DNA of 11,680 nt from a virus. Taxonomy: Duplodnaviria > Heunggongvirae > Uroviricota > Caudoviricetes. The notes under the pieces are model-generated. The model did no database searches. It had not been told where the DNA came from and worked only from the letters and a program-made list of their open reading frames with translations. Of this stretch, positions 2,002 to 10,942 are shown one piece after another; the stretch's first letter is position 1, and each line of letters begins with the position of its first letter. The position numbers and the translations under genes are program-made. The DNA lies in the IMG/VR virus record IMGVR_UViG_3300028883_000047, positions 1 through 11,680 of that record. One strand, given 5' to 3'.

Positions 2002-2079
2002 TGGTACCCACCCTCGGATTCGAACCGAGATACAAGAGGACTTAAATCTCCCCGCGATTGCCAATTAGCGTAGGTGGGC
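2002..2079 (-). tRNA. tRNA-Leu(TAA), short variable loop
   Basis: GCCCACC/GGTGGGT acceptor, Leu-type D loop AATTGGCAA, anticodon loop TTTAAGT (A31-C39 mismatch), 5-nt variable loop TGTAT, A73 and CCA. Confidence 0.8.
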
Positions 2080-2444: not shown

Positions 2445-3590
2445 TTAAAACATATCGTAGTAATTGTAACTCTTGGCTGGAACTTCTTTAGCCATTACAA
2501 GATATTCATCGGTTTCATATACAATCTGACCAGCAGACTCATATGCAACCTGAGTGGAAGCAATATAAATTTCCTCATTGTCGTCGTCATCATCGTCCAT
2601 GTCAATGTCTGCAGCTCTGAGTGCTGCTTTGACCTTTGAATTTTTGCTCGTGTGACTGCCCTTAGGTTTCAGTCTGATATACGTATAGTCATACGAACCT
2701 GAGGGCTTAGCGACGATCGCCTTCTGTGCAAGCTCTCGTTTTTCTTCGGTTCCCTTTTCAACGACTTTGATGATTTCAATTTCGGAACCAATCTGTTGAC
2801 GAACGTCGATGTTCAGTTCATCAATAATTTCATCAACAGGCGATCCGAACCGTAGATGTTCTTCAACGATTGATTGAAGCATATCGAAGCTAAAGATTTT
2901 AGAACGACGCGACAAATCAACGATATCTTTGATCGTTGTAACTGATACCCCATGGTCAGCACAGTATCCTTTGATACTAGCCTCGTCCAACTTCCTGTAA
3001 CGGAAATGATAGTAGATACGACTTGGACGGTTGAGCATGAAGTCGCTGATGTCGATCTCGCTATTCTCTGTCATGATGATCAGACGCTTAGTCTTATCAA
3101 CACCATCCATCAACGACAAAAGAGAATCTTGATGCGTCCCGTCCTGGTGCTTGGACGACGTATACATCTTTCCGAATTCATCAAATACAAGACAACACTC
3201 ACCAAGCGATTGGACGAATTGGTCAAACTGATCGCCAGCGTGAGCATCACGAACGAGAATAACCGGAAGACGGAGAGAGTCGATAACACTATTTGCCAAC
3301 AAAGACATGAACAGAGTTTTACCAGTACCTTTATCACCAGTCAAAAGGATACCAGTTGACATCGGACGATCTTTGTAGGTGGTGATACACTTCTCGACAC
3401 GTTCATGTGCCGTACCGTAAATCTTTTCGGGGATCTGGAGATGATCCTTTATAACAGTGAGATAAAAACCAGAGAACTGACTAAACTGAACTGCATATAC
3501 TCTTGGCGGTAGGTAGTCGAGTGCTGTTTCATCGCTGAGCTGAACAACAGAAACGTGTGTTCCATTGATCAGAAATTTAGTCTGCATCAT
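2445..3590 (-). CDS. AAA+ family ATPase
   Basis: 381 aa. Walker A GDKGTGKT, Walker B LVFDEF, and NRPSR arginine-finger region. Confidence 0.9.
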   Translation of the reverse strand: MMQTKFLINGTHVSVVQLSDETALDYLPPRVYAVQFSQFSGFYLTVIKDHLQIPEKIYGTAHERVEKCITTYKDRPMSTGILLTGDKGTGKTLFMSLLANSVIDSLRLPVILVRDAHAGDQFDQFVQSLGECCLVFDEFGKMYTSSKHQDGTHQDSLLSLMDGVDKTKRLIIMTENSEIDISDFMLNRPSRIYYHFRYRKLDEASIKGYCADHGVSVTTIKDIVDLSRRSKIFSFDMLQSIVEEHLRFGSPVDEIIDELNIDVRQQIGSEIEIIKVVEKGTEEKRELAQKAIVAKPSGSYDYTYIRLKPKGSHTSKNSKVKAALRAADIDMDDDDDDNEEIYIASTQVAYESAGQIVYETDEYLVMAKEVPAKSYNYYDMF

Positions 3591-4692: not shown

Positions 4693-5388
4693 TTAGCGAC
4701 CTAGGATCTCGTCAACTTCTTCCTGTGGTAGGAGTTGTGCTTCGTAGTTGCCGTATCCAATGTGACGCTCGATCTGATTGACATATGCTCGGAGATGGTT
4801 TCTGGAACCATTGAGCAAATTGTTCAGAGTGCGTTGAACGTCTGCACGGTCGGTTGATTTAAGACCGCAATCATCTCTTGTGTATAGTTCTACGTTTGCA
4901 TCTAGTATTTGCTGATTGCAGTAGTTGATGTCGATCATATCAAGCTCTTCGATGAATGCCCCAACGTACATTGCGTCAAGAACGCTCATTTCACCTTTTG
5001 TAACGAACTCATTAAACTTCTCAGTGAAGTATTCACTGTACTCAGCACCAGTGAACACACCTACATTATCGTTCGTCGATGGATCAACTACATCATATTT
5101 GTCGAGTAGTTTCTTTACTGCATCGGTGTGTTTTTGTTCTGAGTCGTCGATACGACCGAATGCTCTCGAGCGTGGATACATCTGACTGAAAACGATGTAC
5201 ACGTCACGCGCGAGTTTTTCTTCTTCCCGCATAAAGGTCAGATGCTGCTCTTCTGCAATTGTGAGATTTGCTGTGGTTTGGTTTTGTTGGCCACCTTGCC
5301 ATCCTCCCCATCCCTGACCCCAGCGGGCCATCAGAGGTGCGGAGGTGATCAGTGCAGCCGCCAATAATAGTGTTATTAGCTTTTTCAT
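4693..5388 (-). CDS. DUF2202 ferritin-like domain protein with signal peptide
   Basis: Motifs LTFMREEEKLARDVY, SEQKHTDAVKKLLDKY, GAFIEELD, GSRNHLRAY. N-terminal MKKLITLLLAAALITSAPLMA. SD AGGAGG. Confidence 0.88.
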   Translation of the reverse strand: MKKLITLLLAAALITSAPLMARWGQGWGGWQGGQQNQTTANLTIAEEQHLTFMREEEKLARDVYIVFSQMYPRSRAFGRIDDSEQKHTDAVKKLLDKYDVVDPSTNDNVGVFTGAEYSEYFTEKFNEFVTKGEMSVLDAMYVGAFIEELDMIDINYCNQQILDANVELYTRDDCGLKSTDRADVQRTLNNLLNGSRNHLRAYVNQIERHIGYGNYEAQLLPQEEVDEILGR

Positions 5389-5448: not shown

Positions 5449-5550
5449 ATTCTCCCACAGGGATCGAACCTGTACCACTTTACCATAAAGAGTCAGCCTA
5501 ACTGTTACTCAACTCAGGGGGAGTGTGTGCTACCATTACACCAAAGAGAA
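5449..5550 (-). ncRNA. tRNA-like RNA with an insertion in place of the anticodon loop
   Basis: Acceptor TTCTCTT/GGGAGAA, D arm GTGT-AATGGTA-GCAC, T arm ACAGG-TTCGATC-CCTGT. Anticodon stem CACT/AGTG encloses about 40 nt. No CCA. Confidence 0.65.
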
Positions 5551-6117: not shown

Positions 6118-6194
6118 TGGCACCCCCGGAGAGATTCGAACTCCCGACTTCAACGTTCGAAGCGTTGCACTCTAGTCCACTGAGTTACGGAGGC
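6118..6194 (-). tRNA. tRNA-Arg(TCG)
   Basis: CAACG-CTTCGAA-CGTTG anticodon arm, A20, G73 and CCA. Confidence 0.92.
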
Positions 6195-6203
6195 AATAAA
6201 ATT

Positions 6204-6279
6204 TGGAGCGGGTGAAGGGACTCGAACCCTCAACATCTGACTTGGAAGGACAGCACTCTACCAATTGAGTTACACCCGC
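6204..6279 (-). tRNA. tRNA-Gly(TCC)
   Basis: GCGGGTG/CACCCGC acceptor, CTGTC-CTTCCAA-GTCAG, U73 and CCA. Confidence 0.95.
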
Positions 6280-6282
6280 ATA

Positions 6283-6406
6283 ACAAGACGCATTTTTGCA
6301 TGGCTGGTGTTCTACCATTGAACTACAGACCAACATTCATCGATCTGGTGGGGTTCGAACCCACAACCCCCAGCTTGGGATAGCATTATTGCTGTTAGCG
6401 TCTTAA
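6283..6406 (-). ncRNA. CAGCAA-scaffold element A enclosing a circularly permuted tRNA
   Basis: Order on the minus strand: AAGACGC..ACAGCAA, GCTGG (anticodon stem 3'), T arm, CAGATCG, linker, TGGTCTG, D arm GTTC-AATGGTA-GAAC, CCAGC (anticodon stem 5'), GCGTCTT. Confidence 0.75.
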
Positions 6407-6410
6407 AATC

Positions 6411-6520
6411 AACAAGGCACGTTTTTTGCGAACCTAGGCGTCCAAAGCCAGCCACGGACTCGAACCGTGTTTCGGGTGTTTTACAGACACATGCTTTTAA
6501 ATTGCTGTGCGTGCCTTTAA
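6411..6520 (-). ncRNA. CAGCAA-scaffold element B with anticodon arm (GTA) and T arm
   Basis: AAGGCACG/CGTGCCTT helix, ACAGCAA, GTGT-CTGTAAA-ACAC, CACGG-TTCGAGT-CCGTG. Confidence 0.7.
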
Positions 6521-6524
6521 TTTG

Positions 6525-6671
6525 TTACTTATTGTCTATACACTCTACAAATTCTTTCTTGCCGAGAGCACAGCGAATAACTTGCCACGCTACCCAACCA
6601 ACAAAGCCAATTGATGCAAAAACAACAAGCGTAAGGCCACCGATCATGGCCGCTGGATATAAAATTTCCAT
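6525..6671 (-). CDS. Small single-pass membrane protein (48 aa; absent from the ORF track)
   Basis: MEILYPAAMIGGLTLVVFASIGFVGWVAWQVIRCALGKKEFVECIDNK with SD GGAG 7 nt upstream. Confidence 0.75.
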   Translation of the reverse strand: MEILYPAAMIGGLTLVVFASIGFVGWVAWQVIRCALGKKEFVECIDNK

Positions 6672-6701
6672 GATTGAACTCCATATATTAAAGTTTTCTA
6701 A

Positions 6702-6739
6702 TATTTAGAAGTATCCATCAAAGAAATGAAAAAAGTCAA
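6702..6739 (-). promoter_or_regulatory. Putative tandem promoters: sigma70-like (TTGACT-18-GATACT) and late-type CTAAATA
   Basis: TTGACT at 6739-6734, GATACT at 6715-6710, CTAAATA at 6708-6702, all upstream of ATG 6671. Confidence 0.45.
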
Positions 6740-6820
6740 GGCACACTTGTCGGGATTGAACCGATCTATTCGATTTTTGAAATCAAACGTTATCCTAAGA
6801 TATTGCTGTTCGTGCCTTTA
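6735..6820 (-). ncRNA. CAGCAA-scaffold element C with anticodon arm (CAA) and T arm
   Basis: AAGGCAC/GTGCCTT helix, ACAGCAA, TTTGAT-TTCAAAA-ATCGAA, TCGG-TTCAATC-CCGA. Confidence 0.7.
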
Positions 6821-7252
6821 AATCGTTTTAATTGCTGCCATAATGACAACACATCCACTAGTGGTATCTTCTAGTTCCATTGAGTGGGTTTCGTTATGAT
6901 TGAATTCATATATGTGACCAAGCTGGACTTCTTCTGTCTGGCCATTCGCTGTTATAGTCGATTTACCAGTTGGTAAGATAACAGGAATTACGTATGTGGT
7001 GTCGGTGAATTTATCACCCAGCTGATCTGTGTGTGGTTCAGCTCCCTGACATACACTAAAATATACCCAATCAACTCGGTTAACATCAACTCCAGCAATT
7101 GCCGCAATTGACTGTTCCAACTCAGAACTAACAGCCCCGTGTTTTTGGAATTTTGCTGGCGTGTTTGTTTTGTAGTTTTCGTACTTGATCGTATCGGCAT
7201 GTGATACTACATGCTGGGGGATCTGTACGCTTCCGTGGTCGATTATATTCAT
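6818..7252 (-). CDS. Cupin/2OG-Fe(II) oxygenase-like protein (Asp/Asn beta-hydroxylase-like)
   Basis: HxD motif (EPHTD) and distal His (YEFNHNETHS) in a beta-strand-rich 144-aa protein. Confidence 0.65.
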   Translation of the reverse strand: MNIIDHGSVQIPQHVVSHADTIKYENYKTNTPAKFQKHGAVSSELEQSIAAIAGVDVNRVDWVYFSVCQGAEPHTDQLGDKFTDTTYVIPVILPTGKSTITANGQTEEVQLGHIYEFNHNETHSMELEDTTSGCVVIMAAIKTI

Positions 7253-7446
7253 TAGTGAACAGACTCGAACGCCTTTTCATAGACGAAGTCGCGGTGTTCT
7301 TCGTTCAACTCGTTGAGCTCGTCTTCCGTCAACTCTTCTCCGGTATCTTCCCAAACTGCGTATGCGATATATGCATCACAAAAGTCTGGATAGTCCCACA
7401 TATGGACATCTTCAACTTCAATGTCTGTTATATTATCGAGGTTCAT
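7252..7446 (-). CDS. Conserved acidic phage hypothetical protein
   Basis: 64 aa with DYPDFCDAYI motif. Stop/start overlaps with both neighbouring CDSs. Confidence 0.8.
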   Translation of the reverse strand: MNLDNITDIEVEDVHMWDYPDFCDAYIAYAVWEDTGEELTEDELNELNEEHRDFVYEKAFESVH

Positions 7447-7760
7447 TAAGCACCACCTGGTGAAATTTGTATAGGTATGTAGATGAATGCAGCTCCTTCT
7501 GTGAGCTGTACGGCTACATCAGCTTTGAGTATGCCCCTTTTGGAATCTTCAAGGTTGTTGTTACTTTCATCACACACTACTGTAAAATCATTTAGCTTGC
7601 GAGTTACTACAAGCGGGGATAGGTAATTGGTTATTGCAACTTTAAAGTTGTTACGCAAGAGCTGATCGTTGACCTCAAATAGAGCATGTTTAGCTAGCTC
7701 TATTAGATTGTCTTTGATGTTTTCAAGAACTTCTCTTTGACTGTCTTTCGTTACTTTCAT
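7446..7760 (-). CDS. Stand-alone tail sheath C-terminal domain-like protein
   Basis: LFEVND...F...I..YL...DFTVVCDESNN...ADVAV...FIYIPI resembles the C-terminal region of T4 gp18-type sheath proteins. Only 104 aa. Confidence 0.7.
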   Translation of the reverse strand: MKVTKDSQREVLENIKDNLIELAKHALFEVNDQLLRNNFKVAITNYLSPLVVTRKLNDFTVVCDESNNNLEDSKRGILKADVAVQLTEGAAFIYIPIQISPGGA

Positions 7761-7780
7761 CAGTTACCTTTCTTTTGGTT

Positions 7781-7865
7781 TGGTGGGCCCGGAGAGACTC
7801 GAACTCTCACGCCTCACGGCACTAGAACCTAAATCTAGCGTGTATACCAATTTCACCACAGGCCC
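7781..7865 (-). tRNA. tRNA-Leu(TAG), canonical long variable arm
   Basis: GGGCCTG/CGGGCCC acceptor, CTAGA-TTTAGGT-TCTAG, long variable arm, A73 and CCA. Confidence 0.95.
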
Positions 7866-7866
7866 G

Positions 7867-8127
7867 TTAGTTTATTGGATACAAGACGACGCACCGAGGA
7901 TGTTTTTGTTTAAACTCATCCCACTCGTCTTCTTCCATATCTGCATCTTCTGCCGACCATGATGGAGTCCATACTTCACCGCTCCAGGTCGTTTCAGCAA
8001 CGTAGATAGCATCATTATCAGCACCAGCGCATGGTGAGTATCCGTTACCTTCAGCATCCTTCTGCATGATTACATCAAGTTCAGGATCCATCTCGCTCAG
8101 CTGTTTTATCAGATCTTTTACTTTCAT
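7867..8127 (-). CDS. Conserved phage hypothetical protein
   Basis: MKVKDLIKQLSEMDPELDVIMQKDAEGNGYSP... Start moved to 8127 because the ORF-track extension to 8172 overlaps the RNase P RNA 3' end. Confidence 0.8.
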   Translation of the reverse strand: MKVKDLIKQLSEMDPELDVIMQKDAEGNGYSPCAGADNDAIYVAETTWSGEVWTPSWSAEDADMEEDEWDEFKQKHPRCVVLYPIN

Positions 8128-8136
8128 TTGTTCATC

Positions 8137-8327
8137 GTAACCGATAGCCAGGATTCTGTCAAGGGACATCATTCATCTATTTGCCACAACCCGTCCTCAT
8201 AGGGTAGAGCTTCCCTCGGACTGTTTGTGTTGCATAGGACTTTTATTTGTAGTAAAACGCCGTAGCTCCTACAACATGCTCCGCCTATGTCCTGAGCTTC
8301 CTCACCGTAGTGCGATGCCCTGGTTAC
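8137..8327 (-). ncRNA. rnpB: Minimal type-A-like RNase P RNA (catalytic domain only)
   Basis: P1 GTAACC/GGTTAC, P2 GGCATC/GATGTC, P3 CAC-TACG-GTG. P4 AGC-(U)-CAGGA/TCCTGGCT lies in GAGGAAGCTC and ACAGAATCCTGGCTATC contexts. J5/15 CAA, L15 AAACA/GGGTT, and TAGATGAATGA. Confidence 0.88.
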
Positions 8328-8331
8328 AATT

Positions 8332-8409
8332 TGGTGCCCACGGTCAGAGTCGAACTGACACTCACTACCCTCTCAAGATAGCCGCTTTGCCAGATTAGCG
8401 TACGTGGGC
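8332..8409 (-). tRNA. tRNA-Leu(GAG), short variable loop
   Basis: GCCCACG/CGTGGGC acceptor, D loop AATCTGGCAAA, CTATC-TTGAGAG-GGTAG, variable loop TGAGT, A73 and CCA. Confidence 0.87.
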
Positions 8410-8422
8410 ATAGAAATAAGTT

Positions 8423-8520
8423 GAGCGGCGCTTAATGCTACCGGATGGACTTGAACCACCAACAAGACGTTTTCACGCGTCCGTTCTACGTTGAACTACA
8501 GTGACACTCGCATACCGCTC
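8423..8520 (-). ncRNA. Degenerate tRNA-Phe(GAA)-like core enclosed by an outer helix
   Basis: Core 8436-8505 has D arm GTTC-AACGTA-GAAC, GACG-CGTGAAAA-CGTC, T arm GGTGG-TTCAAGT-CCATC and no CCA. Outer stem GAGCGG/CCGCTC. Confidence 0.6.
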
Positions 8521-8528
8521 GTTACTGT

Positions 8529-8558
8529 AATGTAACATGAAATTGACTTAAAAGTCAA
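8529..8558 (-). promoter_or_regulatory. Sigma70-like promoter overlapping a perfect palindrome
   Basis: TTGACT-18-TACATT with TGn extension. Palindrome TTGACTT-AA-AAGTCAA at 8543-8558. Confidence 0.5.
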
Positions 8559-8566
8559 CAAGAATC

Positions 8567-8633
8567 TGGAGGGTCCCGCTATGTAGGCTTTCGCGTGGCC
8601 CAATCACCGTTAATCAACCTACACGGTGCTGCA
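8567..8633 (-). ncRNA. Possible structured 3' trailer of tRNA-Ser(GCT)
   Basis: CACCGT/ACGGTG hairpin whose loop TGTAGGTT can pair with downstream AGCCTACA. Ends in GGGACCCTCCA. Confidence 0.3.
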
Positions 8634-8635
8634 GT

Positions 8636-8729
8636 TGGCGGAAGGTCAGGGATTCGAACCCTGATGCCCATACAATGGACTTTCGGTTTAGCAAACCGCC
8701 CCGGACTGACCTATCCCGGCACACCTTCC
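8636..8729 (-). tRNA. tRNA-Ser(GCT), atypical D region
   Basis: GGAAGGT/ACCTTCC acceptor, CGGT-TTGCTAA-ACCG, long variable arm GTCCAT/ATGGGC, G73 and CCA. G8 and a 3-nt acceptor-to-D linker are unusual. Confidence 0.85.
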
Positions 8730-9155
8730 TTTAAACGTTTTATGAGACCATTCGGGTGCCTCATCTGTTAGGTCAAGAAAATCCTCGTACCACAAAAATT
8801 TGTTCCCATTCTTCGGTGCGACGAATTTTATTCTCCGTCCACCAAAGTGGAATGCCGGAAATACTACACGCTGCACATCGGGCAAGTATAAAGCGTAGTA
8901 TTCAAAGTCGCCGTCTTGGTACCTGACTTCGTGGTTTCCAGCCTTTGTTGCATACGATGTTGCATTGCGTATTGTTCCGTCAGCACTATGCTTCACTTGG
9001 ATACGCACTAGTCGTTTTCCAGTATCTGCGATGATGTCGTATGGTAAGTGTTCGCTCAACGGAATCGATATATCATATCCTAGTGCCGTCAACGCCGCCA
9101 CAGCCTGCGCCAGCGCTAGATCTGATTTGTTCTTAGTGTGATGTTCCCGTGCCAT
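8688..9155 (-). CDS. PD-(D/E)XK endonuclease, free-standing homing-endonuclease type (I-Ssp6803I/PDDEXK_5-like)
   Basis: HHTKNKSDLA...GYDISIPLSEHLPYDIIAD...RIQVKH gives PYD...QVK catalytic motifs. SD AGGAG. The last 14 codons lie in tRNA-Ser(GCT). Confidence 0.85.
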   Translation of the reverse strand: MAREHHTKNKSDLALAQAVAALTALGYDISIPLSEHLPYDIIADTGKRLVRIQVKHSADGTIRNATSYATKAGNHEVRYQDGDFEYYALYLPDVQRVVFPAFHFGGRRIKFVAPKNGNKFLWYEDFLDLTDEAPEWSHKTFKGRCAGIGQSGAVC

Positions 9156-9179
9156 AACATTCTCCTGATGTTGTGGCCG

Positions 9180-9187
9180 TATTTATG
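9180..9187 (-). promoter_or_regulatory. Putative late promoter CATAAATA for the endonuclease gene
   Basis: ATAAATA core 25 nt upstream of ATG 9155. Confidence 0.5.
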
Positions 9188-9282
9188 CTCTATGGGACAC
9201 CTGCGCCAGGTTCTCGCATATCTACCATTAGGTTTGAATTTGCCTTATTCTTCAATGGGTTATAAACTTGTTGACTTTGTTC

Positions 9283-9289
9283 CTAAATA
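9283..9289 (+). promoter_or_regulatory. Putative late promoter CTAAATA
   Basis: Same motif as 881-887, about 100 nt upstream of the + strand ORF at 9391. Confidence 0.4.
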
Positions 9290-9390
9290 TTTACGGATGC
9301 CCCGCGTAAGGCGTTCAACTCCCTTAGTTATTACGCAGTTAAGTTCGAGGTTTTTCTCGGACATCACTCTCAACAATAGGAGGACAAATC

Positions 9391-9549
9391 ATGAAATTGT
9401 CAGACATCAAGGATGTGGACTTTGATTGTGATGAGGAACTCCGAGAAAGTTTTCACGAAAAGGCGAAAGTCGTAAAGAAAAACAGAGCTCGGTACTTGCC
9501 ATCACTTGAAGAGATGGTCAAGGAACTTCATGAAGAGAACTCTTCGTGA
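9391..9549 (+). CDS. Small hypothetical protein (52 aa; absent from the ORF track)
   Basis: MKLSDIKDVDFDCDEELRESFHEKAKVVKKNRARYLPSLEEMVKELHEENSS. Strong SD AGGAGG, followed directly by a terminator. Confidence 0.8.
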   Translation: MKLSDIKDVDFDCDEELRESFHEKAKVVKKNRARYLPSLEEMVKELHEENSS

Positions 9550-9550
9550 C

Positions 9551-9588
9551 CGAAAAAAGGGGGCCTTAAATAAGGCCCCCTTTTTTCG
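9551..9588. terminator. Bidirectional intrinsic terminator
   Basis: AAAAAA-GGGGGCCTTA-AA-TAAGGCCCCC-TTTTTT between convergent CDSs. Confidence 0.9.
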
Positions 9589-9593
9589 ACTTA

Positions 9594-10007
9594 TTAGGTA
9601 CTGAGGCGACGCCCTCCTATCAGCTCAGCAAGGTACTCGCGTGACTCGTCCGACAACCCATCATACTCAGCGTTTCCGATGTCTTCATGAAGCTGTAATA
9701 TTTCAGGAGTGGCTTCTCCTTCCAGGTCGTACCCTCGTTGGAGGCACTCGTGCTGAAATACGGCGGTCAGTATCTCACCGAATTCTTCCGCTTTTACCAC
9801 CGTCTTGTTCCGTCGAGGCGGATCGGCGATCTTCTTCCTGTATGAAAGACCTGTTCCTCGCAGGCCGACGTTTGCGTGAACGCCTTGTTTTCCGACGGAT
9901 AGAGATGTTCCGCGAGGACCAATCCCAACACTTGATACTCCTTGCTTCCCGATGTTTATTCGGAAAAACTTACCGAGCGAGAAAATCTTTCGAAATCGAA
10001 AACCCAC
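9594..10007 (-). CDS. DUF4236 domain-containing protein
   Basis: GTG start at 10007 with SD GGAGG. MGFRFRKIFSLGKFFRINIGKQGVSSVGIG...NVGLRGTGLSY is the DUF4236 pattern. Confidence 0.85.
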   Translation of the reverse strand: MGFRFRKIFSLGKFFRINIGKQGVSSVGIGPRGTSLSVGKQGVHANVGLRGTGLSYRKKIADPPRRNKTVVKAEEFGEILTAVFQHECLQRGYDLEGEATPEILQLHEDIGNAEYDGLSDESREYLAELIGGRRLST

Positions 10008-10041
10008 GACTTGACCTCCATTTAATGTAGTACGTCTTCGC

Positions 10042-10070
10042 ATTATAGGAGCAAATCCCGTTGGGGTCAA
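10042..10070 (-). promoter_or_regulatory. Near-consensus sigma70 promoter
   Basis: TTGACC-17 nt-TATAAT upstream of the DUF4236 gene. Confidence 0.8.
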
Positions 10071-10074
10071 CGTT

Positions 10075-10084
10075 CACACCTTCC
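10075..10084 (-). repeat. 10-bp copy of the tRNA-Ser(GCT) 5' end (GGAAGGTGTG)
   Basis: Identical to 8720-8729. The two copies bracket the 8730-10074 gene block. Confidence 0.6.
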
Positions 10085-10090
10085 ATAATA

Positions 10091-10193
10091 AACAAGACGC
10101 ATCACCCCTGCCTTTGGGGCGAATATCCGTTGGCTGTTACACCGCCGGAATGGACTCGAACCATCAATTTTTGGTTTGCTGCTTGCGTCTTTA
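10091..10193 (-). ncRNA. CAGCAA-scaffold element D with T arm and two hairpins
   Basis: AAGACGCA/TGCGTCTT helix, GCAGCAA, GATGG-TTCGAGT-CCATT, CCG..CGG hairpin, GCCCC-AAAGGCA-GGGGT. Confidence 0.7.
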
Positions 10194-10298
10194 ATAGCGC
10201 CGCCCCACTGCCGTCAAGGTCCCTCATCCCAAGCATGACCAAGGGTGATGACGCTATCCCTCCCTAGGGGGTTTGTTACGAACAGTCGGAGCTATTAA
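10191..10298 (-). ncRNA. Unknown multibranched structured RNA (108 nt)
   Basis: TTAATAGC/GCTATTAA terminal helix, ACTG/CAGT, CGTCA/TGACG, GGTC/GACC and two side hairpins. No ORF. Confidence 0.5.
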
Positions 10299-10299
10299 T

Positions 10300-10385
10300 T
10301 GGTAGCGGGAGTAGGATTTGCACCTACGAAGCCTTGCGGCGGTGGGTTATGAGCCCAGCTACTTTGTCTACTTGTATATCCCGCG
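10300..10385 (-). tRNA. Initiator-type tRNA-fMet(CAT) with a long variable arm
   Basis: C1/T72 mismatch, GGG/CCC in the anticodon stem, loop CTCATAA, 14-nt variable region CGCCGCAAGGCTTC, T loop TGCAAAT, A73 and CCA. Confidence 0.82.
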
Positions 10386-10393
10386 ATAGAATT

Positions 10394-10468
10394 TGGTCCA
10401 CCCGGTAGGATTCGAACCTACCTCTCCTGCTCTTCAGGCAGGCGCTAATCCAACTCAGCTACAGGTGG
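10394..10468 (-). tRNA. tRNA-Phe(GAA)
   Basis: CCACCTG/CGGGTGG acceptor (C1-G72), CCTGC-CTGAAGA-GCAGG, A73 and CCA. Confidence 0.9.
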
Positions 10469-10479
10469 ATGGAAGAAAT

Positions 10480-10541
10480 TGGGGACCGTCGACGGGATTA
10501 ACCGTCATTAATCTCACGCAAGTCGTCACTTGGAACGGTCC
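10480..10541 (-). ncRNA. 62-nt tRNA-His-like mini RNA
   Basis: G-1, acceptor GACCGTT/GACGGTC, C73 and CCA. T-like arm GACGG-TTAATC-CCGTC and a single middle hairpin CAAGT-GACG-ACTTG. Confidence 0.6.
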
Positions 10542-10549
10542 ATAGAATT

Positions 10550-10623
10550 TGGCAGGCCCCCACGGATTCGAACCGCGACTAAGACTTTTGGAGAGTCGTG
10601 TGCTGCCGTTACACTAAGGGCCC
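10550..10623 (-). tRNA. tRNA-Trp(CCA)
   Basis: Anticodon loop CTCCAAA in stem CGACT/AGTCT, G73 and CCA. Confidence 0.92.
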
Positions 10624-10631
10624 ATTATTTA

Positions 10632-10691
10632 TCACTGAAAATTGGCTTTAATCCAACGCCAGTATTCGCTAATATCTGCTGCTTCTGTCAT
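10632..10691 (-). CDS. Small ORF (19 aa)
   Basis: MTEAADISEYWRWIKANFQ with SD GGAG 9 nt upstream. Fills the spacer between tRNA-Arg and tRNA-Trp. Confidence 0.45.
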   Translation of the reverse strand: MTEAADISEYWRWIKANFQ

Positions 10692-10717
10692 TTTACTATT
10701 CTCCGTTGATATGAATT

Positions 10718-10795
10718 TGGCACCCACCACAGGATTCGAACCTGCATCCACTTGATTCGTAGTCAAGCACTCTAATCCAATTGAGCTAAGTGGGC
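10718..10795 (-). tRNA. tRNA-Arg(ACG)
   Basis: CTTGA-CTACGAA-TCAAG anticodon arm, A20, G73 and CCA. Confidence 0.94.
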
Positions 10796-10802
10796 ATTAA
10801 AT

Positions 10803-10942
10803 AACAAGACACAATTTTTTCCGACAGGCGCCTTTACCAGACTTGGCCATACCCCCAAAGGATGATTGGTGGGGGCAGCGGGATTCGAACCACGCGAATA
10901 CCTGTTTTACCAAAGGAGTTGAGTTGCTGGTTGTGTCTTTAA
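10803..10942 (-). ncRNA. CAGCAA-scaffold element E enclosing a circularly permuted tRNA with encoded CCA
   Basis: Order on the minus strand: AAGACACAA..CCAGCAA, ACAGG, TATTC, T arm, TGCCCCC-A-CCA, 10-nt linker, GGGGGTA, D arm GCC..GGC, CCTGT, TTGTGTCTT. Confidence 0.82.

What the first reader, a model, noticed from the sequence alone, without database searches (positions are those of the whole stretch)
6283..10942. Five-member CAGCAA scaffold RNA family carrying interchangeable tRNA-derived cargo
Seen: five elements (6283-6406, 6411-6520, 6735-6820, 10091-10193, 10803-10942) share a minus-strand frame: TAAG(A/G)C(A/G)C (A substituted for T in some), 1-3 nt, CAGCAA, cargo, G(C/T)G(T/C)CTTG. 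The closing helix co-varies (AAGACGC/GCGTCTT, AAGGCAC/GTGCCTT, AAGACAC/GTGTCTT) while CAGCAA is invariant and unpaired. Every cargo contains a T arm, but the rest differs: a full permuted tRNA (A, E), anticodon plus T arm (B, C), or T arm plus hairpins (D). Inference: the helix plus CAGCAA is a protein- or enzyme-binding handle, and the cargo presents tRNA mimicry. It could serve as a decoy for anticodon nucleases or tRNA-sensing defences, as an antitoxin RNA, or as a processing/ligation substrate. It may correspond to an already catalogued orphan Rfam motif (skipping-rope is one to test), but I have not seen the tRNA cargo described.
Basis: partly seen in the sequence, partly recalled or inferred. 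Interest (0 to 1): 0.9.

Follow-up and report, generated by a model that had tools for sequence, protein, structure and literature searches.

The report
Phage Y-like RNAs with CAGCAA handle
The five repeats are genes for small stem-closed RNAs that share one conserved "handle" and carry different pieces of tRNA; elsewhere the same handle occurs in hundreds of phage contigs, often right beside a gene for a Ro60-shaped RNA-binding protein, so they look like an uncatalogued phage branch of the Ro60/Y-RNA system, although the partner gene is not on this genome fragment.

Summary
Five minus-strand elements in the window, plus a sixth at about 44.8 kb of the same 75.7-kb virus record, share this frame: a 7-bp helix AAGRCRC/GYGYCUU, exactly 3 nt, invariant CAGCAA, variable cargo, and a closing G. 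The plus strand and the controls have none. The helix co-varies in the six copies and across 857 copies from 309 IMG/VR loci (73 in a reversed-sequence control). The copies lie in tRNA arrays, and 93% are on the strand of the nearest tRNA.

Rfam 15 has no family for them. Only element A gives a sub-threshold YrlA hit. A and E are YrlA-style tRNA mimics without an anticodon loop. B and C carry an anticodon-like hairpin plus a T arm, and D carries a T arm plus hairpins.

All 49 long handle-bearing contigs encode a DUF2828/DUF7788 protein, and its AlphaFold model matches Ro60 over its full length. Handles sit directly upstream of that gene in 11 of 12 loci, and in 2 of 3 loci chosen by protein alone.

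Best reading: these are Y-RNA-like partners of a Ro60-like phage protein. Its Felix O1-type homologue (Bas63 gp130) counters the Ppl defence.

Caveats: this fragment is about 24% complete and has no such gene, and neither binding nor expression has been tested. Earlier notes of this scan report the same handle on other DNA.

The parts
6284..6404 (-). Element A. Handle: AAGACGC at 6404-6398, spacer UAA, CAGCAA at 6394-6389, GCGUCUU at 6291-6285, closing G at 6284. Cargo is a YrlA-style tRNA mimic: a 4-bp anticodon-like stem CUGG/CCAG, a T arm, a 9-bp acceptor-like hairpin closed by a 4-nt loop, and a D arm with GG. It ends 4 nt before tRNA-Gly(UCC), whose 5' end is at 6279.
   Evidence: Rfam YrlA RF02553 scores 37.7 bits, E 1e-6, below the gathering score of 69.
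6413..6517 (-). Element B, in tandem 8 nt upstream of A. Handle: AAGGCAC(G)/(C)GUGCCUU plus CAGCAA at 6507-6502. Cargo: a 4-bp hairpin with a 7-nt loop CUGUAAA (Tyr-GUA-like anticodon loop), a perfect T arm CACGG-UUCGAGU-CCGUG, and a weak 3' hairpin.
6737..6818 (-). Element C. Handle: AAGGCAC/GUGCCUU plus CAGCAA at 6808-6803. The 5' end abuts the stop codon of ORF 6818-7252. Cargo: a small hairpin, an 8-bp hairpin that can also be drawn as a 5-bp stem with loop UUCAAAA, and a 4-bp T arm UCGG-UUCAAUC-CCGA.
10093..10191 (-). Element D. Handle: AAGACGC(A)/(U)GCGUCUU plus CAGCAA at 10181-10176. Cargo: T arm GAUGG-UUCGAGU-CCAUU followed by two further hairpins. It lies just upstream of the DUF4236 ORF at 9594-10070.
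   Evidence: (z = -3.2).
10805..10939 (-). Element E. Handle: AAGACAC(AA)/(UU)GUGUCUU plus CAGCAA at 10929-10924. Cargo is a permuted tRNA-like body: an anticodon-stem 3' strand, a T arm with a bulged U, an acceptor 3' strand with ACCA, a 10-nt linker, an acceptor 5' strand (7 bp in all), a class-II-like D arm, and an anticodon-stem 5' strand. It has no anticodon loop. It ends 9 nt before tRNA-Arg(ACG).
6118..6279 (-). tRNA-Gly(UCC) and tRNA-Arg(UCG) immediately downstream of A. They are part of the minus-strand tRNA array (24 tRNAs in the window, 46 in the record) in which all the elements are embedded.
10718..10795 (-). tRNA-Arg(ACG) immediately downstream of E. RNase P cleavage at its 5' end would trim the trailer of E (inference).

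Best explanation
The elements are genes for small non-coding RNAs that are co-transcribed with the phage tRNA array and released by ordinary tRNA-end processing. Each RNA is closed by a 7-bp helix, followed on the 5' strand by a 3-nt spacer and the invariant CAGCAA.

This 'handle' is the docking site for a phage Ro60-like ring protein of the DUF2828/DUF7788 family. In the same way, the basal stem and the GNCGAA motif of bacterial Y RNAs dock Ro60/Rsr. The variable cargo is the effector module of the resulting particle. It can be a tRNA body without an anticodon loop, an anticodon-like hairpin, a T arm or other hairpins. It either presents tRNA look-alikes to tRNA-binding or tRNA-cleaving host factors, or tethers such factors to the ring protein. 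The likely outcome is counter-defence or RNA quality control during infection.

Shown here:
- the handle, its covariation and its strand bias;
- its location in tRNA arrays;
- its genome-level and gene-adjacent association with DUF2828;
- the Ro60 fold of the DUF2828 protein.

Inferred:
- that the protein binds the handle;
- that this phage carries the protein in the unsampled three quarters of its genome;
- the biological role.
For: 1. The handle is real and specific. There are six copies on one strand and none on the other strand or in controls. Only the helix is shared among the copies, with compensatory changes.

2. It is a large family. The 309 fetched loci hold 857 distinct helix-NNN-CAGCAA elements against 73 in the reversed control. 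Leave-one-out pairing is 87-92% against 52-82% after shuffling, with AU/GC/UA/CG swaps.

3. It acts at the RNA level and is linked to tRNAs. 93% of copies are on the strand of the nearest tRNA, and 303 of 734 lie within 10 nt of one.

4. Partner protein. 49 of 49 long handle-bearing contigs encode DUF2828, including 39 of 39 that are at least 90% complete. In 11 of 12 loci, 1-3 handles sit directly upstream of the gene on the same strand. In loci chosen by protein alone, 2 of 3 show the same arrangement. These DUF2828 proteins are only 30-79% identical to each other.

5. Negative controls. Seven tRNA-rich large phages without DUF2828 have no handle: T4, XacN1, Xoo-sp13, RAS14, DSS3_MAL1, Atu_ph07 and Phosso. 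This includes two that carry canonical TROVE Ro60.

6. Fold. The DUF2828/DUF7788 model has pLDDT 88.7. Its 13 best PDB matches are all Ro60, with E-values from 2e-7 to 6e-4, most with TM 0.5-0.6, and alignments of about 520-600 columns.

7. Felix O1 has DUF2828 ORF42 immediately followed by a tRNA array holding four handles. The Bas63 homologue gp130 is reported to be Ro60-like and to counter the Ppl defence. Its authors guessed that some neighbouring 'tRNAs' are Y RNAs (bioRxiv 10.1101/2024.10.10.617714).

8. A and E have the YrlA architecture (Chen 2014, PMC4201824).
Against: - No DUF2828 or TROVE gene is present on this 75.7-kb record, by Pfam models or by my own profile. The record is only about 24% complete, but the partner is simply unobserved here.
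- The nearest GenBank relatives by ligase (about 40% identity) lack both the handle and DUF2828.
- The CAGCAA motif does not match the known Rsr motif GNCGAAN0-1G.
- The YrlA model also scores tandem tRNA pairs at 27 bits, so the 37.7-bit hit of A is weak evidence.
- No binding test was possible, and there is no RNA evidence for this window.
- The 49 contigs were chosen because they carry the handle, and many come from one metagenome. DUF2828-positive KVP40 and Munch have no canonical handle.
Confidence: 0.6

Rival explanations
1. The RNAs are protein-independent decoys. They act on their own as sponges or bait for tRNA-targeting defence nucleases or tRNA sensors, and the helix plus CAGCAA only clamps and stabilises the RNA or sets its ends. 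The link with DUF2828 would then reflect a shared anti-defence island, not binding.
For: - Family cargos include exact anticodon-loop copies: CUGUUAA (Asn), CUUUUAA (Lys) and CUGAUAA (Ile).
- B carries a Tyr-like loop, and the sixth copy an Asn-like loop.
- DUF2828 loci have anti-defence neighbours, Acb2/Tad1-like and Apyc1-like.
- No partner gene is present on this record.
Against: - A stabilising clamp would not need an invariant single-stranded hexamer at a fixed 3-nt distance.
- Handles sit immediately 5' of the DUF2828 gene even where no tRNA is near.
- Only about a fifth of cargos have anticodon-like loops.
Confidence: 0.14
2. They are canonical YrlA/YrlB-type Y RNAs that serve a TROVE-type Ro60. 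That Ro60 would be either a phage copy in the missing part of the genome, as in the distant relatives Atu_ph07 and Phosso, or the host's Rsr.
For: - A scores 37.7 bits on YrlA over the full model length.
- A and E have the YrlA domain order.
- Atu_ph07 and Phosso, which are distantly related by ligase, encode TROVE proteins.
Against: - The GNCGAA motif is absent.
- The TROVE-bearing phages Atu_ph07 and Phosso have no CAGCAA handle.
- Across contigs the handle tracks DUF2828, not TROVE.
- Scores lie far below the gathering threshold, at a level that tandem tRNAs almost reach.
Confidence: 0.1
3. They are punctuation or processing elements of the tRNA operon (sites for RNase E, RNase III or RNase P), or decaying tRNA pseudogenes, with no function of their own.
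For: - They lie between tRNAs, often within 10 nt of one.
- Cargos are tRNA fragments.
Against: - The handle is conserved across phages whose DUF2828 proteins share only 30-79% identity.
- Pseudogenes would not keep a co-varying closing helix.
- The cargo is not a recent copy of the resident tRNAs.
- Handles also occur beside DUF2828 outside tRNA arrays.
Confidence: 0.08
4. They are DNA-level repeats, such as a recombination site or miniature mobile cassette with inverted ends that captures tRNA fragments.
For: - They have inverted terminal repeats, variable cargo length and many copies per genome.
Against: - Strand bias with the tRNAs is strong (93%).
- CAGCAA is asymmetric, present on one arm only.
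- The helix is kept by compensatory changes, not by identical ends.
- G-U is more frequent than A-C at pair 4 (43 against 13).
- No transposase or integrase association was seen.
Confidence: 0.04

Closest known systems
Bacterial and phage Y RNAs YrlA/YrlB with Ro60 (Rsr, TROVE); Rfam RF02553; Chen et al. 2014, PMC4201824; Thermus phage phiLo Ro60 with Yrl1/Yrl2, PMC12135203
   Same: - A 5'-3' basal stem closes the RNA, and a short conserved single-stranded motif on the 5' strand lies next to the stem.
- A modular upper part is often a tRNA mimic in the order T arm, closed acceptor, D arm (A and E here).
- There are several different RNAs per genome.
- At family level the RNA genes lie just upstream of, and on the same strand as, a gene for a Ro60-fold ring protein.
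   Different: - The motif is CAGCAA at a fixed 3 nt from a 7-bp helix, not GNCGAAN0-1G.
- The associated protein is DUF2828/DUF7788. It has no detectable sequence similarity to TROVE and only fold similarity.
- Copy numbers are much higher, and the RNAs are scattered through tRNA arrays.
- The cargo range is wider: bare anticodon-like hairpins, bare T arms, and near-complete tRNA bodies.
- No Rfam model reaches its threshold.
Bas63 gp130 / Felix O1 ORF42, the Ro60-like counter of the Ppl defence (PhageMaP preprint, bioRxiv 10.1101/2024.10.10.617714)
   Same: - It belongs to the same protein family that tracks the handle (DUF2828).
- Its gene sits at the head of a tRNA array that holds four handle RNAs.
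- The authors proposed that some of the 'tRNAs' are Y RNAs.
   Different: - The RNAs themselves were not identified in that work.
- The Felix O1 handle helix reads AGACCNN/NNGGUCU, not AAGRCRC/GYGYCUU.
- This window has the RNAs but not the gene.
Permuted and split tRNA genes (for example Cyanidioschyzon merolae), and tRNA-like decoys encoded by phages
   Same: E has the 3' half, then CCA, then a linker, then the 5' half, with a 7-bp acceptor stem.
   Different: There is no anticodon loop and no bulge-helix-bulge junction. The T stem is imperfect. The termini are closed by the family handle, so it cannot be a decoding tRNA.

Membership tests
YrlA (Rfam RF02553) | Score at or above the curated gathering threshold of 69 bits | tested here: not met
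   A scores 37.7 bits. B-E give no hit even at E<=10 on a 581-nt or whole-window search. Tandem tRNAs in other phages score up to 27.5 bits on the same model.
YrlA / bacterial Y RNA | A tRNA-like module (T arm, stem-loop in the acceptor position, D arm) joined through an anticodon-like stem to the basal stem | tested here: met
   Met for A and E by direct reading and folding. Not met for B, C, D or the sixth copy, which resemble the shorter YrlB-type partners at most.
YrlA / bacterial Y RNA | The GNCGAAN0-1G (CGAA) motif near the 5' end, thought to contact Ro60 | tested here: not met
   All six copies carry CAGCAA instead, 3 nt after the helix. The motif definition comes from PMC4201824 and PMC12135203.
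YrlA / bacterial Y RNA | Encoded within about 4 kb of a Ro60 (TROVE) gene, on the same strand | tested here: not met
   No TROVE match in the 75.7-kb record. The record is about 24% complete, so this says nothing about the whole genome.
CAGCAA-handle RNAs associated with DUF2828 Ro60-like proteins (uncatalogued family defined here) | A 7-bp co-varying closing helix, a 3-nt spacer, invariant CAGCAA, variable cargo and a 3' closing G | tested here: met
   All five window elements and the sixth copy meet it. The family consensus comes from 857 copies.
CAGCAA-handle RNAs associated with DUF2828 Ro60-like proteins | Embedded in, and co-oriented with, a phage tRNA array or the DUF2828 gene | tested here: met
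   All six copies lie on the tRNA strand. A and E end 4 and 9 nt before a tRNA, and the sixth copy starts at the CCA of a tRNA.
CAGCAA-handle RNAs associated with DUF2828 Ro60-like proteins | A DUF2828/DUF7788 gene in the same genome | tested here: inconclusive
   Absent from the record by Pfam PF11443 and by profile A2, but three quarters of the genome are missing. Present in 49 of 49 other handle-bearing contigs.
CAGCAA-handle RNAs associated with DUF2828 Ro60-like proteins | Physical binding of the handle by the protein | not testable with these tools
   No tool here predicts RNA-protein complexes. Binding is inferred from synteny and from the fold.
Canonical tRNA (Rfam RF00005; ARAGORN) | A cloverleaf with an anticodon loop, detected by a tRNA model | tested here: not met
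   ARAGORN and the tRNA covariance model call none of the five. There is only a truncated 16-bit hit inside A.
skipping-rope and other orphan Rfam motifs | Any Rfam 15 match overlapping the elements | tested here: not met
   No such match in the window at E<=1, nor in 6270-6850 at E<=10. None at gathering scores in 133 kb of element-rich loci, where only tRNA, tmRNA, ROOL and an OLE fragment were found.

The most novel reading that the evidence does not exclude
The handle RNAs form a modular, RNA-based counter-defence array. One Ro60-like ring protein is loaded with a library of interchangeable tRNA parts: anticodon loops of Lys, Asn, Ile and Tyr tRNAs, T arms, and whole tRNA elbows. Each part baits or sequesters a different tRNA-cleaving or tRNA-sensing host immune nuclease. 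Phages then diversify their protection by swapping cargo within a constant handle.
Probability: 0.22. Interest if true: 0.9.

Novelty: new variant of a known kind. Interest (0 to 1): 0.72.

Why it matters
Ro60 and Y RNAs are a classic ribonucleoprotein whose bacterial and phage roles are still poorly understood. Phage tRNA arrays are now seen as counter-defence tools.

A very common, uncatalogued RNA family that shares a protein-type handle and carries swappable tRNA parts would supply three things:
- the missing RNA partners of a large family of Ro60-shaped phage proteins, one of which is already reported to counter a defence system;
- an explanation for many unexplained gaps in phage tRNA clusters;
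- a directly testable system in Felix O1 or Bas63 with E. coli or Salmonella laboratory strains.

The family should be added to Rfam, and phage annotation pipelines should recognise it so that they stop calling parts of it tRNA pseudogenes.

Tried and rejected
- **Rfam.** No family other than sub-threshold YrlA matches. Skipping-rope is rejected.
- **YrlA hits in XacN1, Phosso and Atu_ph07.** These turned out to be tandem tRNA pairs, so they are false positives of the model.
- **Pattern hits in XacN1, Phosso, Atu_ph07, KVP40, Munch and DSS3_MAL1.** They lie in coding sequence or lack a canonical helix, so they are chance matches. The hit 1.3 kb from the Atu_ph07 TROVE gene lies inside the tail-sheath gene.
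- **The 467-aa ORF at the head of the array (14677-16080).** It is low-complexity with no Ro-like features and was rejected as a partner.
- **Single-sequence AlphaFold of the DUF2828 protein.** It failed at pLDDT 38. The alignment-based run succeeded.
- **Sequence-profile search of the PDB.** It did not find Ro60. Only the fold search did.
- **Close relatives of this phage.** None were found in IMG/VR using the ligase as query, and megablast against GenBank phages hit only tRNA genes. Jumbo contigs that carry handles are not close kin, with ligase identity of 26-30%.
- **Expression.** No RNA run holds the window. Bovine-gut metatranscriptome contigs cover relatives of two elements of locus L095, but contigs cannot prove transcription or map ends.
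- **Cargo as recent copies of the resident tRNAs.** Rejected, because only generic T-arm matches were found.

Full report
**Where the window lies.** The window is the first 11,680 nt of a 75,680-nt IMG/VR virus record that CheckV rates about 24% complete. The only public run holding this DNA is a marine-sediment metagenome. The record carries 46 tRNA genes, all on the minus strand. It also carries a T4 Rnl1-type RNA ligase next to a metallophosphoesterase, and an NAD-dependent DNA ligase. The ligase's best GenBank matches, at about 40% identity, are the jumbo phages XacN1, Phosso, Xoo-sp13 and Atu_ph07. The source is therefore most likely a fragment of a jumbo myovirus of about 300 kb.

**Observation.** Reading the minus strand confirms the five elements within 2-3 nt of the stated coordinates.
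- The pattern AAGRCRC-N-CAGCAA occurs six times on the minus strand of the record. It occurs zero times on the plus strand and zero times in the reversed-pattern control.
- A relaxed scan allowing one mismatch in CAGCAA and one unpaired position finds no further copies.
- The sixth copy, at genome 44837-44896, starts right at the CCA of a tRNA-Lys. It carries only a 36-nt cargo with an Asn-like hairpin loop CCGUUAA.
- The spacer between helix and CAGCAA is exactly 3 nt in all six copies, and a G follows the 3' arm in all six.
- RNAalifold on the six copies returns only the closing helix as common structure. A-U/G-C double changes occur at two pairs, and a further compensatory change at an optional eighth pair.

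**Cargo in the window.**
- A runs anticodon-like stem, variable region, T arm, 9-bp hairpin in the acceptor position, D arm, then back to the stem.
- E is a true permutation, with a 7-bp acceptor stem, discriminator A, CCA and a 10-nt linker. Its T stem has a bulged U, and it has no anticodon loop.
- B and C carry a hairpin with a 7-nt anticodon-type loop plus a T arm.
- D carries a T arm plus two hairpins.
- Apart from generic T-arm identity, the cargos are not copies of the phage's own tRNAs.

**Comparison with Rfam.** The only non-tRNA match is YrlA (RF02553) on element A, at 37.7 bits against a gathering score of 69. This was a useful lead, because YrlA is the bacterial Y RNA with exactly this domain order (PMC4201824). 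It is weak evidence, though. The same model scores tandem tRNA pairs in other phages at up to 27.5 bits, and the published Ro60-contact motif GNCGAAN0-1G is absent. A gathering-threshold scan of 133 kb of element-rich loci from other phages found only tRNA, tmRNA, ROOL and an OLE fragment. The family is therefore not in Rfam 15. Literature searches found no description of it.

**The family is very large.**
- The 309 fetched loci (2.6 Mb) hold 857 distinct helix-NNN-CAGCAA elements with a perfect 7-bp helix, against 73 in a reversed-sequence control.
- The consensus is W-A-A-G-R-C-R-C, W-W-A, CAGCAA ... G-Y-G-Y-C-U-U, G.
- In a leave-one-out test, each helix position pairs in 87-92% of copies against 52-82% after shuffling. 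All four Watson-Crick types occur at positions 1, 6 and 7.
- Of the 734 elements with a tRNA in the same locus, 93% lie on its strand and 303 lie within 10 nt of it.
- Cargo length runs from about 15 to 160 nt, with a median of 64.
- Among 566 consensus-like copies, 183 T-loops were found.
- Anticodon-type loops are dominated by CUGUUAA (Asn), CUUUUAA (Lys) and CUGAUAA (Ile).
- In at least two copies the cargo is a tRNA body matching positions 6-65 of the tRNA model.

**The partner protein.** After I had reached the Y-RNA-like reading, earlier notes of this scan pointed to DUF2828 as a Ro60-shaped protein next to the same handle. I tested this myself.
- PF11443 (DUF2828) is present in 49 of 49 long handle-bearing contigs, including 39 of 39 that are at least 90% complete.
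- In 11 of 12 DUF2828 loci, one to three handles lie within about 1 kb upstream of the gene on its strand.
- These DUF2828 proteins share only 30-79% identity, and their loci range from 29 to 47% GC.
- Sampling by protein alone, blind to the RNA, gave the same arrangement in 2 of 3 loci: a Clostridium perfringens SPbeta-like element and a Paenibacillus contig. No tRNA array was called around the gene there, and Acb2/Tad1-like and Apyc1-like genes lie nearby.
- Controls: T4, XacN1, Xoo-sp13, RAS14, DSS3_MAL1, Atu_ph07 and Phosso have neither DUF2828 nor the handle. The last two do have canonical TROVE Ro60.
- KVP40 and Munch have DUF2828 but no canonical handle, so the rule is not perfect, or their handles have diverged.
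- An alignment-based AlphaFold model of a DUF2828/DUF7788 protein reached pLDDT 88.7. Its 13 best PDB matches are all Ro60 structures: Xenopus, human, Deinococcus Rsr and Thermus phage phiLo. E-values run from 2e-7 to 6e-4, and most have TM 0.5-0.6 over about 520-600 aligned columns. vWA domains follow lower in the list.
- Sequence profiles do not see this relation.

**Link to experiment.** Felix O1 ORF42 is a DUF2828 protein, and a tRNA array follows it directly. That array holds four handles of the form AGACCNN-NNN-CAGCAA...NNGGUCU-GG. The Bas63 homologue gp130 was reported to resemble Ro60 structurally and to counter the Ppl defence. Its authors speculated that some neighbouring tRNA genes are Y RNAs, without identifying them. 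Thermus phage phiLo shows that a TROVE-type phage Ro60 binds Y-like RNAs encoded just upstream and can recruit host PNPase.

**Mechanism proposed.** The elements are transcribed with the tRNA operon, and RNase P and the 3' tRNA-processing enzymes acting on neighbouring tRNAs trim them. This step is inferred from spacers of 4-10 nt. The handle docks the Ro60-like ring. This step is inferred from synteny, co-occurrence, the fold, and the analogy with the Y-RNA stem and motif. The cargo then presents tRNA parts to host factors. E-type cargos with a 7-bp acceptor and CCA could also be cut by RNase P, as reported for Mycobacterium smegmatis YrlA. The biological role is open between counter-defence (decoy or tether) and RNA repair or quality control. 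I favour counter-defence because of Bas63 gp130, the anti-defence neighbours and the anticodon-loop cargos.

**Limits for this window.**
- No DUF2828 or TROVE gene lies on the record.
- No close relative could be fetched.
- No RNA data exist for this window.
- Metatranscriptome contigs from bovine gut cover relatives of two elements in another phage, but they cannot show transcription or ends.
- The assignment of these five RNAs to a Ro60-like partner therefore rests on family-level evidence.

**Verdict.** The closest known system is Ro60/Y RNA (YrlA). Membership in YrlA proper fails on score, motif and partner family, so this is a new variant of a known kind. Earlier notes of this scan recorded the same handle on other DNA.

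Noticed in passing
window 2002-2079 (-): ARAGORN calls a tRNA with anticodon UUA, which would read the UAA stop codon (a suppressor-type tRNA), inside the array.
   Followed up: no
window 10303-10385, 8436-8505 and 5449-5550 (-): The Rfam tRNA model finds three extra tRNA-like genes (37.5, 36.3 and 30.7 bits) that ARAGORN does not call. The first has a long extra arm, and the third is 102 nt long and may hold an insertion.
   Followed up: no
window 10195-10300 (-): The roughly 105-nt stretch between the tRNA-like gene at 10303-10385 and element D is G+C-rich with several hairpin-forming inverted repeats and no ORF. It may be another structured RNA.
   Followed up: no
window 2445-3590, 4693-5388, 8688-9155 and 9594-10070 (-): Protein genes are interleaved with the tRNAs: an AAA/STAND-like ATPase, a DUF2202 protein, a PD-(D/E)XK endonuclease (PDDEXK_5) and a DUF4236 protein.
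   Followed up: partly
own record 23977-25119 and 25701-26432 (-) (L002:4977-6119 and L002:6701-7432): A T4 Rnl1-type RNA ligase, with an HNH endonuclease and a calcineurin-like phosphoesterase next to it. This looks like a tRNA-repair cassette about 11 kb from the first tRNA array.
   Followed up: partly
L203:3837-4428 (+) and L196:4727-5082 (-): Other handle-bearing phage contigs carry a full-length ROOL RNA (312 bits) and a tmRNA (156 bits) inside or beside their tRNA arrays.
   Followed up: no
L381:8140-8511 and L383:2193-2981: DUF2828 loci in a Clostridium perfringens SPbeta-like element and a Paenibacillus contig have neighbours with Acb2/Tad1-hairpin and anti-Pycsar Apyc1 domains. The Ro60-like gene therefore sits in anti-defence islands there.
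   Followed up: no
L374 (KVP40 167443-170694), minus strand near locus position 2303: Just upstream of the KVP40 DUF2828 gene lies a short GACAUU-UUA-CAGCAA-19 nt-AAUGUC element. It may be a minimal, divergent handle.
   Followed up: partly
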